Shown: positions 32,001-35,000 of the stretch, piece by piece
Layout: every line of letters begins with the position of its first letter
Numbering within the stretch: position 1 is the stretch's first letter
NCBI RefSeq assembly: GCF_009931435.1
Contig: NZ_CP043414.1
Origin: Escherichia coli
Lineage (GTDB): Bacteria > Pseudomonadota > Gammaproteobacteria > Enterobacterales > Enterobacteriaceae
Direction: 5' to 3' (one strand)
Length of the DNA stretch: 64,000 nucleotides
Program-made: the position numbers

Positions 32001-35000
32001 CAACCAGGCGGCCTGAACACCACGTCGGTGAAAAGTGGGCAACAATGGGATGCGCCAAACGGCTGGGCACCGTTGCAGTGGGTCGCGACAGAAGGATTAC
32101 AAAACTACGGGCAAAAAGAGGTGGCGATGGACATTAGCTGGCACTTCCTTACCAATGTTCAGCACACCTATGACCGGGAGAAAAAGCTGGTGGAAAAATA
32201 TGATGTCAGCACCACCGGAACAGGGGGCGGCGGTGGCGAATATCCATTACAGGATGGCTTTGGCTGGACCAATGGTGTGACGCTAAAAATGCTGGATTTG
32301 ATCTGCCCGAAAGAGCAACCATGTGACAATGTTCCGGCGACGCGTCCACTCAGTGAATCAACAACACAGCCGGTAAAACAAAAAGAGGCGGAACCTACGC
32401 CTTAACTTTACTGTATATCGAGCAATGCCATTACGTGCATAAAATTGGCATTGCTCTTTCTTCATCACGAAATACCACTCTTTCTACAGTCTATGCCTTT
32501 ATTTTCTTTTATTAGGGAAGATTTTAATTTTATTTTATCAACTTGTTAATCATTACACCTCTATTTATATTTTCCCCCACTCCCCATTCTCCCTGACAAT
32601 TTTCTTGTGGAACAAAGTGTTATTTAAGAAACAAGCAAATCATTCTGTCTCTTTAGACAAATTTTGACATCAAACATGATCTTTTTCGCTATATGTGTAA
32701 GTATATAGCGGTTTTAATTATCAGGATATTACTTATGTCACTAACCAGACGGAGGTTTACACAGATTCTTGCGTCGACATTGTTCCTGCATCATCTGCCG
32801 TCCTTTGCACAATCAGTCAAATTCTGGGCCTCACTGACGCTTCCCGAAGCCCAAAACATTACACGCATCGTCAGCGCAGGCGCGCCCGCCGATTTACTAT
32901 TGCTGGCTGTCGCGCCAGAAAAAATGGTCGGTTTTTCCTCTTTTGATTTTGCCCGTCAGGCATTAATTCCATTGCCAGAGCACATTCGCCAGTTCCCCAG
33001 GCTGGGACGACTCGCCGGGCGCGCCAGCACACTCTCGCTGGAAGGGCTTATGGCATTACATCCCGATTTGGTCGTTGATTGCGGCAATACGGATGAAACC
33101 TGGATCTCCCAGGCACGGCAGGTTAGCGAACAGACACAAATACCCTGGTTATTGCTTAACGGGAAACTGGAACAATCAGCAGAACAGTTAACAACGCTTG
33201 GCAAAACGTTAGGCGAAGAGCACCGCGCCGCAGAACAAGCCAATCTCGCCAGCCGCTTCGTTGGTGAAGCTCAGGCATTCGCCACCTCACCCGCCGCTAA
33301 CCTCAGCTTTTATGCTGCGCGCGGTCCTCGAGGGCTGGAAACGGGCTTACAGGGTTCGTTGCATACCGAGGCGGCGGAATTATTAGGTTTGCACAACGTC
33401 GCGCAAATAGCCGATCGCCACGGTCTGACACAGGTTTCCATGGAAAATCTCCTGCGCTGGCAGCCGGATATTATTCTGGTTCAGGAGGCCGTTACTGCAG
33501 ATTTTATTCGTCGTGATCCTCTCTGGCAGGGCGTGAAAGCGGTTGCGGAACAACGCATCTTATTTTTAAGTGGCCTGCCCTTTGGCTGGCTGGATGCCCC
33601 GCCGGGAATCAACCGTCTTCTGGGATTACGCAGACTTCACGCCTGGCTGGATCCCGCCATCAATCGCCAGTTTAAAAGTGACATGCAGCATTACGCCCAA
33701 CTGTTCTGGCATTGTTCACTCAGTGACGCCGACTATCAAAAATTGGTGGCGAGCTAATGAGAACCGTAAACGGATGTATTTTGCTGCTGGCAGCTATCAG
33801 TATCACTTTTGCCGCCGTAAGTGGGGCTTATCATCTCGATATACAGCAACTGCTGGCGCTCATTCTTCGTCAAGAAAATGTTCCTGTGCAGGAACAAATT
33901 GTCTTCTGGCAAATCCGCGTGCCGCGTATTCTTGCTGCGCTGTTTCTGGGCGCGGCGCTGGCAGGGGCCGGAACCACCTATCAGGGAATGTTCCGTAATC
34001 CCTTAGTGTCACCGGATATTTTAGGCGTCTCCGCCGGTGCCGGACTTGGTGCCTGCGCGGCAATCCTGTGGGGATTATCCATTGTTTACATCCAGCTGTA
34101 CGCATTTTGCGGCGGGCTGATGGTGGTCGCGGGCGTCTGGTTGATTACGCGTCGGGTGACCCGCCACGATCCGATCTTAACCCTGGTGCTGGTAGGCATT
34201 GCGTTAGGAACGTTGTGCGGAGCGGGGATATCGCTAATAAAAACGCTGGCCGATCCTTACACCCAGTTACCGTCAATTACCTTCTGGTTGCTGGGGGGGC
34301 TGTCCACCGTGACCTTACGCGATCTCTGCTATGCTGCACCGATCATTCTCATAGGCTCCTTGCCCCTGTTTTTTCTCCGCTGGCGCATGAATTTACTCAC
34401 GCTTTCCGACGACGAAGCCCATTCGCTGGGACTGAACGTGACACGTCTGCGCTTTGGATTAATTGTCTGCGCCACACTCATCACCGCCAGCACGGTAGCA
34501 ATAGCGGGCATAATTGGTTGGGTCGGCCTGGTCGTTCCGCACATTGCCCGCTTGTTGACCGGTCATAACCATCAGCAGCTGTTGCCCATGGCAATGTGTA
34601 CTGGCGCGATTCTGCTCCTGCTTACCGATACGCTGGCACGCAGCATTGGAACAACAGAAATCCCACTTGGCATTCTGACCGCTTTTGTTGGTGCACCGTT
34701 TTTCCTGTTTTTGTTGTTACGCGGAGGTCGCCAGTGACTTTGCTTGCCGTCCGTCATGCGTCTCTGGGTTACTCCCGCCATCCGGTGCTACGCGACGTGT
34801 CCTTCACCCTGTCGCAAGGAACAATTTGTTGTCTGTTAGGAGCCAATGGTTGCGGCAAAACCACACTCATGCGCTCCATTCTTGGTGTTATACCGTTATT
34901 AAAAGGCGAGATCTTACTGGATAGCCTCCCTGTGCAGACACTCAGCCATCGCCAGCGCGCGCAGGCTATTGCCTGGGTGCCGCAGGCGCACGACGGCATT

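What the first reader, a model, noticed from the sequence alone, without database searches (positions are those of the whole stretch)
32406..32734. AT-rich control region upstream of the transporter operon with a partial Fur-box-like motif
The 330 bp between the treA terminator hairpin and the binding-protein gene is strongly AT-rich and contains ...TTGTTAATCATTAC..., which partially matches the GATAATGATAATCATTATC Fur consensus. The match is weak, so the regulator (Fur, ModE or something else) is undetermined. Identifying it would hint at the substrate.
Basis: seen in the sequence. Interest (0 to 1): 0.25.

Follow-up and report, generated by a model that had tools for sequence, protein, structure and literature searches.

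The report
ModE (molybdate) operator, not Fur box
The AT-rich region upstream of this E. coli "iron" transporter operon holds no credible Fur box; it holds a near-perfect, deeply conserved binding site for the molybdate sensor ModE over the promoter, which suggests the operon responds to molybdenum starvation rather than iron.

Summary
The window is E. coli. The finding lies between treA and the operon known as O-island 55 or "prrA-modD-yc73-fepC", which is presumed to take up iron.

The region is 31% G+C, the treA terminator hairpin is present, and TTGTTAATCATTAC is at 32543-32556.

The Fur reading fails:
- The motif matches the Fur consensus at 12 of 19 positions. It scores 4.0 bits in a matrix built from 11 E. 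coli Fur promoters, where true sites score 10.4-18.4 bits.
- It does no better than shuffled sequence.
- It is absent from orthologous promoters.
- Published Fur ChIP-exo data list no peak there in two strains that carry the operon.

It matches the published E. coli ModE consensus ATCGnTATATA-N6-TATATAnCGAT at 17 of 20 positions. None of 2000 shuffles reached that score.

The same pattern picks out only the modA and moaA operators in 26 kb of K-12 DNA. It recurs at the same place in every orthologous locus with an intact promoter, from Escherichia to Shewanella. Only the two "n" positions vary.

The site overlaps the core promoter, so the likely mechanism is repression by molybdate-bound ModE. 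The ABC importer is closest to the Haemophilus MolBC-A molybdate transporter.

This looks like a new ModE regulon member. I found no prior report.

The parts
32420..32462 (+). treA intrinsic terminator: an 11-bp stem, a 15-nt loop and a TTTCTT tail
   Evidence: RNA fold gives -19 kcal/mol, z = -4.4, with 0 of 200 shuffles as stable.
32463..32663 (.). AT-rich spacer (20-42% G+C per 55-bp block). It is present only in E. coli-type alleles and absent from Citrobacter, Klebsiella and the other orthologous promoters.
   Evidence: Composition; upstream sequences of orthologs. No Rfam family matches it.
32539..32557 (.). It is a chance-level match.
   Evidence: It matches the consensus at 12 of 19 positions and scores 4.0 bits, against 10.4-18.4 bits for known sites. 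It is not conserved in orthologs. Sakai and 042 show no Fur ChIP-exo peak here (PMC10164565).
32664..32669 (+). -35-like hexamer TTGACA, followed by a 17-nt spacer up to the first base of the palindrome
   Evidence: TTGAY is conserved at -22 to -18 relative to the box in 27-30 of 32 distinct orthologous sequences. Its role as the -35 element is inferred. No transcription start data were available.
32687..32710 (.). Predicted ModE operator: CGCTATATG-TGTAAG-TATATAGCG
   Evidence: - It differs from CGNTATATA-N6-TATATANCG at 1 position and is the only hit in the window. Expected hits are 0.17 at <=3 mismatches, and 0 of 100 shuffles hit at <=1 mismatch.
- It matches the 28-bp published consensus at 17 of 20 positions; 0 of 2000 shuffles reach that.
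- The same pattern finds only the modA and moaA operators in 26 kb of K-12 DNA.
- It is present at the same position in all orthologous loci with an intact promoter.
32723..32726 (+). Shine-Dalgarno AGGA of the binding-protein gene
   Evidence: Read from the sequence. CAGGA is conserved in most enteric orthologs.
32735..33757 (+). Periplasmic substrate-binding protein (340 aa) with a twin-arginine signal, MSLTRRRF
   Evidence: RefSeq annotation of near-identical genomes. R5 and R6 are invariant in 20 orthologs. The closest solved structures are 4pag (uncharacterised), then H. influenzae MolA 3psa.
33757..34737 (+). FecCD/BtuC-type permease
   Evidence: The best solved homolog is HI1471 (MolB) at 1.5e-64 and 221 bits. 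HmuU and FhuB score 171 bits and BtuC 144 bits.
34734..35492 (+). ABC ATPase
   Evidence: The best importer-type solved homolog is HI1470 (MolC), at 1.2e-35. Annotation.
35502..36314 (+). Class I SAM-dependent methyltransferase ('yc73')
   Evidence: PMC1890555.
36311..37165 (+). ModD, a quinolinate-phosphoribosyltransferase-like protein
   Evidence: TIGR01334 modD at 3.8e-150. The nearest solved structures are quinolinate phosphoribosyltransferases.
37191..38164 (+). TonB-dependent receptor ('prrA'). It is a pseudogene in this window because of a 997-bp internal deletion near 37701-37711.
   Evidence: Comparison with the intact 1971-bp gene in L001.

Best explanation
The functional element of this control region is a ModE operator at 32687-32710. 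It lies directly over the core promoter of the operon encoding the binding protein, permease, ATPase, methyltransferase, ModD and TonB-dependent receptor.

Proposed mechanism:
- When molybdate is sufficient, the ModE-molybdate dimer binds the palindrome CGnTATATA-N6-TATATAnCG. It occludes the -10 and start region, which sits 17 nt downstream of a conserved TTGACA and 12 nt upstream of the ribosome-binding site. Transcription is shut off, as at modABC.
- When molybdate is scarce, apo-ModE leaves and the operon is expressed.

The rest of the AT-rich spacer, including the Fur-like string, is E. coli-specific filler with no detectable conserved site.

By inference, the operon is a molybdenum-starvation-induced, TonB-dependent uptake system. 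Its inner-membrane importer is of the MolBC-A (type II molybdate/tungstate) kind. It is probably not a Fur-controlled iron system.

What is shown: the site, its statistical significance, its conservation and its position. What is inferred: ModE binding, the direction of regulation and the substrate.
For: 1. The consensus ATCGNTATATA-[N6]-TATATANCGAT is the published E. coli ModE consensus (PMC545781).
2. The window site matches 17 of 20 specified positions, and 0 of 2000 shuffles of the AT-rich region reach this (maximum 16). It is the only hit to the 16-position core in 64 kb. Expected hits are 0.17 at <=3 mismatches, and 0 of 100 shuffles hit at <=1 mismatch.
3. Positive control: in 26 kb of K-12 DNA the same pattern hits only upstream of modA (2 mismatches) and moaA (1 mismatch).
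4. In 34 orthologous loci (471 kb), every locus with an intact promoter has exactly one hit. In 28 of the 29 loci measured it ends 19-34 nt before the binding-protein start. In Affinibrenneria it ends 252 nt before the start, behind an insertion. These loci span Escherichia, Citrobacter, Yokenella, Klebsiella, Raoultella, Enterobacter, Symbiopectobacterium, Serratia, Erwinia, Pluralibacter and Shewanella, and protein identity falls to 50%.
5. The only other hits are three further intergenic sites in the fetched loci. One is a perfect second box 16 nt before the receptor gene of S. fodinae.
6. Per-column information is near maximal at CG, TATATA, TATATA and CG. It drops to 0.5-0.7 bits exactly at the two 'n' positions of the published consensus.
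7. The box ends 24 nt before the ATG and 12 nt before the Shine-Dalgarno sequence, with a conserved TTGAY 17 nt upstream. A bound protein would therefore sit on the core promoter.
8. Molybdate-bound ModE binds DNA and represses molybdate uptake genes (PMC11672702).
9. The operon contains modD. Its permease and ATPase are closest among solved structures to H. influenzae MolB and MolC. Its binding protein is structurally closest, among characterised proteins, to MolA. MolBC-A imports molybdate (PMC4031551).
Against: - No experiment is available. I found no ModE binding data, no transcription start site and no expression data under molybdenum limitation for this operon.
- The -10 implied by a 17-nt spacer (CGCTAT) is poor, so the exact promoter geometry is uncertain and an activator may be needed.
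- modE lies outside the window and was not checked in this strain or in the other species. Only K-12 was checked.
- The palindrome also folds as an RNA hairpin followed by a U-rich tract.
- The binding protein is only 21% identical to MolA, and its closest solved relative (4pag) is uncharacterised, so the substrate inference is weak.
- The literature has long labelled the cluster as iron-related (PMC1890555, PMC12928451).
- Studholme & Pau 2003, which scanned genomes for this motif, could not be read, so prior description cannot be excluded.
Confidence: 0.8

Rival explanations
1. Fur-regulated iron-uptake promoter. Fe-Fur binds the TTGTTAATCATTAC motif, or another site in the spacer, and represses the operon in iron-replete cells.
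For: - The cluster is annotated and cited as an iron or siderophore-type system (PMC1890555, PMC12928451).
- The motif overlaps a weak promoter-like TTGTTA-17-TATATT.
- It matches the Fur consensus at 12 of 19 positions.
Against: - The matrix score is 4.0 bits, against 10.4-18.4 bits for 11 known E. coli Fur sites (leave-one-out 6.9-16.5) and below the shuffle mean of 6.1 bits.
- The best score in the whole region is 9.1 bits. It overlaps the ModE box, and 8.7% of shuffles reach it.
- None of 33 orthologous promoters reaches 10.4 bits, and most score below 6.
- The motif lies in a spacer that exists only in E. coli.
- Fur ChIP-exo in Sakai and 042, which both carry the operon, lists peaks at ymgE and ycgV but none at this intergenic region. 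The operon genes are absent from the Fur pan-regulon tables (PMC10164565).
- The same scan finds the genuine ycgV Fur site in this window at 18.4 bits.
Confidence: 0.04
2. The palindrome acts at the RNA level. It would be a hairpin plus U-tract in the 5' leader that serves as an attenuator or terminator, or insulates the operon from treA read-through, rather than as a protein-binding DNA site.
For: - The consensus scan flags 32686-32711 plus TTTTAATTAT as terminator-like.
- The RNA fold gives -12.5 kcal/mol with z = -2.5.
- A T-rich tract after the box is fairly conserved.
Against: - 94% of cells are paired, but a column-preserving shuffle gives 93%.
- Only one pair varies on both sides, and it is unpaired in 9 of 30 sequences. 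The covariation score is not above the controls (62 of 500 shuffles reach it).
- Both arms are conserved as sequence across taxa whose flanks are unalignable. That is expected for sequence-specific protein recognition, not for a structure.
- The sequence equals an independently defined protein-binding consensus, and its unconstrained positions coincide with that consensus's 'n' positions.
- The stem is almost all A-U.
- No Rfam family matches, the Moco riboswitch included.
Confidence: 0.05
3. The palindrome is the operator of a different, unidentified transcription factor with a ModE-like recognition sequence, unrelated to molybdenum. Alternatively, regulation is dominated by H-NS silencing of the AT-rich spacer.
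For: - No regulator gene lies in the operon, so the factor must act in trans.
- The AT-rich spacer is the kind of DNA H-NS prefers (general knowledge, not tested).
Against: - The match to the ModE consensus is closer than that of the two classical K-12 operators.
- The operon carries modD and a MolBC-A-like importer.
- The AT-rich spacer is missing from most orthologs, while the palindrome is universal.
Confidence: 0.08

Closest known systems
modABC operator of E. coli K-12 (ModE-molybdate repression)
   Same: Both have an inverted repeat of the CGnTATATA-N6-TATATAnCG type just upstream of the first gene of a transporter operon, overlapping the core promoter. The K-12 modA site is CGTTATATTGTCGCCTACATAACG, about 20 nt before the start codon. 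The predicted logic is the same: repression when molybdate is sufficient.
   Different: The downstream genes are not ModABC. They encode a TonB-dependent receptor, a type II (BtuCD/MolBC-like) importer, a methyltransferase and ModD. The site is nearer to the consensus (1 core mismatch) than modA (2). Binding has not been shown.
H. influenzae MolBC-A (HI1470/71/72) molybdate/tungstate type II ABC importer
   Same: The permease is the top solved-structure match (221 bits). The ATPase is the top importer match. The binding protein is structurally similar to MolA, with Foldseek E = 3e-15 and TM 0.68-0.70.
   Different: The binding protein is only 21% identical to MolA and is nearer to an uncharacterised Sulfurospirillum protein (4pag). 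It carries a Tat signal. The E. coli system adds an outer-membrane TonB-dependent receptor, ModD and a methyltransferase, which suggests a larger or chelated substrate. Ligand-binding residues were not compared.
Fur-regulated siderophore uptake operons (fepA, fhuA, fecA, cirA and others)
   Same: Both combine a TonB-dependent receptor with a FecCD-type ABC importer. Database annotation calls this one an 'iron ABC transporter'.
   Different: There is no Fur box at the level of known sites, no conservation of any Fur-like site, and no Fur ChIP-exo peak.
'prrA-modD-yc73-fepC' cluster / O-island 55 / S-loop 83 of pathogenic E. coli
   Same: This is that cluster, at its treA-ymgE chromosomal position (PMC1890555; PMC12928451).
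   Different: The papers I could read call it a possible iron-uptake system and say nothing about its regulation.

Membership tests
ModE operator / ModE regulon | Inverted repeat matching ATCGnTATATA-N6-TATATAnCGAT | tested here: met
   17 of 20 positions match, with 1 mismatch in the 16-position core. 0 of 2000 shuffles do as well. It is the only hit in 64 kb. The consensus is from PMC545781.
ModE operator / ModE regulon | The search pattern recovers known ModE operators and little else (specificity control) | tested here: met
   In 26 kb of K-12 DNA it hits only modA and moaA. In 471 kb of orthologous loci it hits only the operon promoters plus three further intergenic sites in the fetched loci.
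ModE operator / ModE regulon | Site conserved in orthologous promoters, with the constraint pattern of the consensus | tested here: met
   All loci with an intact promoter have it. Information content is low only at the two 'n' positions.
ModE operator / ModE regulon | Site positioned to affect the promoter (overlapping -10 or +1 for repression) | tested here: inconclusive
   The box lies between a conserved TTGACA (17 nt upstream) and the Shine-Dalgarno sequence (12 nt downstream), so any promoter must overlap it. No transcription start data exist and the implied -10 is weak.
ModE operator / ModE regulon | modE present in the same genome | not testable with these tools
   modE lies outside the window. 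It is present in K-12, and from my own knowledge it is part of the E. coli core genome.
ModE operator / ModE regulon | ModE-molybdate binds the site, and expression responds to molybdate and to modE | not testable with these tools
   This needs EMSA or footprinting and reporter assays.
Fur box / Fur regulon | 19-bp site scoring in the range of known E. coli Fur sites | tested here: not met
Known sites score 10.4-18.4 bits. The consensus match is no better than shuffles.
Fur box / Fur regulon | Site conserved in orthologous promoters | tested here: not met
   The spacer holding the motif is E. coli-specific.
Fur box / Fur regulon | In vivo Fur occupancy | tested here: not met
   Published ChIP-exo tables for Sakai and 042 list no peak between the ymgE and ycgV/dhaM peaks (PMC10164565). 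This is literature evidence, not my own test.
Zur box | Match to GAAATGTTATAnTATAACATTTC (consensus recalled from memory) | tested here: not met
   The best match is 13 of 22 positions, and 78% of shuffles do as well.
Riboswitch / structured leader (including the Moco riboswitch) | Match to an Rfam covariance model, or covariation supporting a structure | tested here: not met
   There is no Rfam hit better than E = 4 and no covariation above the controls.
MolBC-A-type molybdate/tungstate importer | Permease and ATPase closest to HI1471 and HI1470 | tested here: met
MolBC-A-type molybdate/tungstate importer | Binding protein is a MolA ortholog with the oxyanion-binding site | tested here: inconclusive
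   MolA is the closest characterised structure, but identity is 21%. The nearest relative, 4pag, has no known ligand. Binding residues were not compared.

The most novel reading that the evidence does not exclude
Many E. coli strains (about 40% of complete genomes) and other Enterobacterales and Shewanella may carry a ModE-repressed, TonB-dependent acquisition pathway for molybdenum or tungsten that has been misfiled for 25 years as an iron system. It has an outer-membrane receptor, a Tat-exported binding protein and a type II importer, which are hallmarks of uptake of large chelates or cofactors. It also has a phosphoribosyltransferase-like ModD and a methyltransferase. The substrate may therefore not be free molybdate. 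It could be a complexed form, such as a metallophore-bound Mo ('molybdophore') or a pterin or Moco-like compound scavenged from the gut.
Probability: 0.3. Interest if true: 0.75.

Novelty: new member of a known kind. Interest (0 to 1): 0.45.

Why it matters
The cluster is used as a marker of pathogenic E. coli (UPEC, APEC, EHEC O-island 55) and is routinely counted among iron-uptake systems. A ModE operator on its promoter changes the working hypothesis about its substrate and about the conditions under which it is expressed.

It points to a second route of molybdenum acquisition, dependent on outer-membrane transport, in enteric bacteria. Molybdoenzyme-dependent anaerobic respiration is central to the expansion of Enterobacteriaceae in the inflamed gut (my own knowledge), so how these bacteria obtain molybdenum when it is scarce is of practical interest.

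The prediction can be tested directly with a reporter fusion, a modE deletion and a molybdate titration.

Tried and rejected
- **Rfam.** A permissive scan of 32200-33000 found nothing: no B12 or Moco riboswitch and no known sRNA.
- **Sigma-70 and terminator scan.** The only promoter-like hits were at chance level (2 found, 1.3 expected). It flagged the palindrome as terminator-like, which I then tested and rejected as an RNA structure.
- **Fur.** I tried consensus counting, the ChIP-exo motif TGAnAATnATTcTCA, and a matrix trained on 11 K-12 promoters. All were negative for this region and for the orthologs.
- **Zur consensus.** Negative.
- **FNR consensus TTGAT-N4-ATCAA.** In the E. coli sequence alone the match is 7 of 10, no better than chance. 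I keep the idea only as a side note, because of the cross-species conservation pattern.
- **Literature.** I found no paper on the regulation of ECs1693-1699 / Z1961-Z1966 or of 'prrA-modD-yc73-fepC'. The one transcriptome mention, of Z1966, is uninterpreted. Studholme & Pau 2003 is not held. A tonB fetch from K-12 missed the gene, so it was not used.
- **fit identity.** I considered whether the operon is the 'fit' system. PMC12928451 lists fit as a separate locus.
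Full report
**Identity of the locus**

The window is Escherichia coli chromosome. A 7.2-kb stretch around the finding is 99% identical to many RefSeq E. coli genomes. The gene order is dhaKLM, treA, a six-gene operon, then ymgE on the opposite strand.

The operon encodes a substrate-binding protein, a FecCD-type permease, an ABC ATPase, a SAM methyltransferase, ModD and a TonB-dependent receptor. About 40% of complete E. coli genomes carry it (2139 of 5426). K-12 has replaced it with ycgY and keeps only the last ~20 nt of the receptor gene.

In O157:H7 this is O-island 55 / S-loop 83 (ECs1693-1699, Z1961-Z1966). [quoted passage not shown]

**Check of the observation**

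- treA ends at 32405.
- The binding-protein gene starts at ATG 32735, not at the upstream in-frame ATG 32693. This follows the RefSeq annotation, the conserved AGGA at 32723-32726, and the conserved N-terminus MSLTRRRF.
- The 330-bp intergenic region is 31% G+C against 50% for the window. Only 0.27% of 330-bp windows are as AT-rich.
- The treA terminator hairpin is real, at -19 kcal/mol with z = -4.4.
- The string TTGTTAATCATTAC is there.

The description is therefore accurate.

**The Fur hypothesis**

The window has 119 placements at 12/19 and 30 at 13/19 or better.
- *Matrix from real sites.* I built a Fur matrix from eleven E. coli promoters accepted as Fur-regulated: fepA-fes, fepD-entS, fepB-entC, fhuA, fecA, fecI, cirA, fiu, exbB, fhuE, and the ycgV site in this window.
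  - Their sites score 10.4-18.4 bits, or 6.9-16.5 bits when each is left out of training.
  - The best score anywhere in the region is 9.1 bits at 32704. 8.7% of shuffles reach it, and it overlaps the palindrome discussed below.
- *Positive control.* The same matrix gives 18.4 bits to GAAAATGATAACCAGTATC at 21652, upstream of ycgV. That site corresponds to a published Fur ChIP-exo peak.
- *Orthologs.* None of 33 orthologous promoters reaches the weakest known site, and most score below 6 bits.
- *In vivo data.* The nine-strain Fur ChIP-exo and RNA-seq study (PMC10164565) includes O157:H7 Sakai and 042, which both carry the operon.
  - Its binding-site tables list peaks at ymgE and ycgV (and at dhaM in 042), but none in the treA/binding-protein intergenic region, which is Sakai 1694437-1694771.
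  - The operon genes do not appear in its pan-regulon tables.
- *Zur.* Also negative.

The Fur reading is not supported.

**What is actually conserved**

I collected 34 orthologous loci from other genomes by searching with an alignment of the binding protein. The six-gene order is conserved from Escherichia through Citrobacter, Yokenella, Klebsiella, Raoultella, Enterobacter, Symbiopectobacterium, Serratia and Erwinia to Shewanella. It often sits next to treA.

The upstream regions are unalignable between genera, with one exception. That exception is a 24-bp palindrome shortly before the start codon, preceded by a TTGAY element. In the window it is CGCTATATGTGTAAGTATATAGCG at 32687-32710.

**Identification as a ModE operator**

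The published E. coli ModE consensus is ATCGNTATATA-[N6]-TATATANCGAT (PMC545781).

- The window sequence TTCGCTATATG-TGTAAG-TATATAGCGGT matches 17 of 20 specified positions. None of 2000 shuffles of this AT-rich region exceeds 16.
- The 16-position core CGNTATATA-N6-TATATANCG, allowing up to 3 mismatches, hits the 64-kb window exactly once, here, with 1 mismatch. The expected number is 0.17. At <=1 mismatch, 0 of 100 shuffles give any hit.
- As a specificity control, in a 26-kb K-12 segment the pattern hits only twice. One hit is just upstream of modA (2 mismatches) and the other is upstream of moaA (1 mismatch). These are the classical ModE targets.
- In the 471 kb of orthologous loci, every locus with an intact promoter has exactly one hit.
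  - In 28 of the 29 loci I measured, it ends 19-34 nt before the binding-protein start.
  - In Affinibrenneria an insertion puts it 252 nt away.
  - The two loci without a hit have lost the promoter.
- The only additional hits are three further intergenic sites in the fetched loci. One is a perfect second box 16 nt upstream of the receptor gene in Shewanella fodinae, where that gene is separated from the rest of the operon.
- The per-column information profile of 32 distinct sequences is close to 2 bits at CG, TATATA, TATATA and CG. It falls to 0.5-0.7 bits exactly at the two positions that are "N" in the published consensus.

**RNA alternative**

The palindrome can fold at -12.5 kcal/mol (z = -2.5). 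It is followed by a T-rich tract, and the simple scan flags it as terminator-like.

On the 33-sequence alignment, 94% of cells pair, but a shuffle that only preserves column composition gives 93%. The single pair that varies on both sides is unpaired in 9 of 30 sequences. No covariation measure exceeds the controls.

Conservation is therefore of the sequence, not of the pairing, as expected for a protein-recognised operator. Rfam finds nothing.

**Mechanism**

- *Shown.* The box lies between a conserved TTGACA (32664-32669, 17 nt upstream) and the Shine-Dalgarno sequence (12 nt downstream).
- *Inferred.* Any promoter for the operon must overlap the box, so a bound ModE dimer would block RNA polymerase. 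Molybdate-bound ModE is the DNA-binding form and represses molybdate uptake genes (PMC11672702). Hence the operon should be off when molybdate is sufficient and on when it is scarce.
- *Uncertain.* The -10 implied by a 17-nt spacer (CGCTAT) is poor. In enteric orthologs the TTGAT plus a conserved CA nine bases later resembles an FNR site (TTGAT-N4-ATCAA). Such a site would be centred about 41.5 bp upstream of a start just past the box, with a conserved TG at box positions 10-11 as a possible extended -10. In the E. coli sequence alone, this FNR match is at chance level. I rate the idea as speculative.

**Substrate**

- Among solved structures, the permease is clearly closest to H. influenzae HI1471 (MolB): 221 bits, against 171 for HmuU and FhuB and 144 for BtuC.
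- The ATPase's best importer match is HI1470 (MolC).
- A confident model of the binding protein (pLDDT 86.6) is closest to an uncharacterised Sulfurospirillum protein (4pag). The next match is MolA (3psa), the molybdate/tungstate-binding protein of that system. MolBC-A imports molybdate (PMC4031551).
- Together with modD in the operon, this fits a molybdenum- or tungsten-related substrate.
- The receptor, the Tat-type signal on the binding protein, and the two enzymes suggest something more elaborate than free molybdate. This step is inference only.

**State of the system in this strain**

The operator and the first five genes are intact. The receptor gene has a 997-bp internal deletion and is a pseudogene.

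**Novelty**

A ModE operator is a known kind of element, and this one is an unreported member as far as I could determine. Ten full-text searches found no paper on regulation of this cluster.

The interest lies in moving a widely cited "iron" virulence-associated cluster into the molybdenum regulon.

Noticed in passing
window 37191-38164 (junction about 37701-37711): The operon's TonB-dependent receptor gene carries a 997-bp internal deletion relative to the intact 1971-bp gene in near-identical genomes. The outer-membrane component is therefore a pseudogene in this strain, while the promoter and the other five genes are intact.
   Followed up: yes
window 21652-21670: GAAAATGATAACCAGTATC lies upstream of ycgV. 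It matches the Fur consensus at 16 of 19 positions and scores 18.4 bits, the best Fur match in the window. It coincides with the 'ycgV intergenic' Fur ChIP-exo peaks reported for Sakai and 042, and I used it as a positive control.
   Followed up: partly
window 32735-32800 (binding-protein N-terminus): The binding protein has a twin-arginine (Tat) signal, MSLTRRRFTQ. Both arginines are invariant in 20 orthologs. Tat export is unusual for an ABC substrate-binding protein and hints at export in a folded or cofactor-loaded state.
   Followed up: partly
window 32664-32677, and orthologous loci at -22 to -9 relative to the box: In enteric orthologs the element upstream of the ModE box reads TTGAT-N4-nnCAA, which is FNR-like, with C and A conserved in 26 and 28 of 32 sequences. 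TG at box positions 10-11 is also conserved. The geometry would fit a class II FNR promoter whose -10 lies inside the ModE box, giving anaerobic activation plus molybdate repression. The E. coli sequence alone matches at chance level.
   Followed up: partly
L033 10740-10763 (Shewanella fodinae); L031 9061-9084; L038 6588-6611: There are second ModE-type boxes elsewhere in the fetched loci. One is a perfect box 16 nt before the receptor gene of S. fodinae. Weaker ones lie before the receptor gene of Serratia sp. H1w and before a small gene next to a MOSC-domain-like gene in Pluralibacter.
   Followed up: partly
L049 (K-12 1245000-1245700) compared with window 32406-38164: K-12 lacks the whole operon and has the unrelated ycgY in its place. 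It retains only about 20 nt of the receptor gene's 3' end next to ymgE, and the 3' end and terminator of treA also differ.
   Followed up: partly
window about 38170-38230 (3' end of ymgE, minus strand): The Fur ChIP-exo study reports a peak assigned to ymgE in K-12, W3110, 042 and Sakai. The corresponding window sequence contains TGAAAATCTTATTCTC. It lies downstream of the operon, not at its promoter.
   Followed up: no
L004 (E. coli ST2747) and L023 (Citrobacter braakii ATCC 51113): Independent deletions have removed the promoter, the ModE box and the 5' end of the binding-protein gene. With the receptor deletion in this window and the loss in K-12, this suggests the operon decays often.
   Followed up: no
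L048 8545-8745 (Sakai ECs_5716), equivalent to window about 32427-32627: The Sakai annotation places a 66-aa hypothetical ORF inside the AT-rich spacer, on the operon strand. I saw no evidence that it is real.
   Followed up: no
L007 5410-7001 (E. albertii): About 1.6 kb of unrelated sequence lies between treA and the binding-protein gene in E. albertii. The ModE box and the TTGAT element are nevertheless retained immediately upstream of the gene.
   Followed up: no
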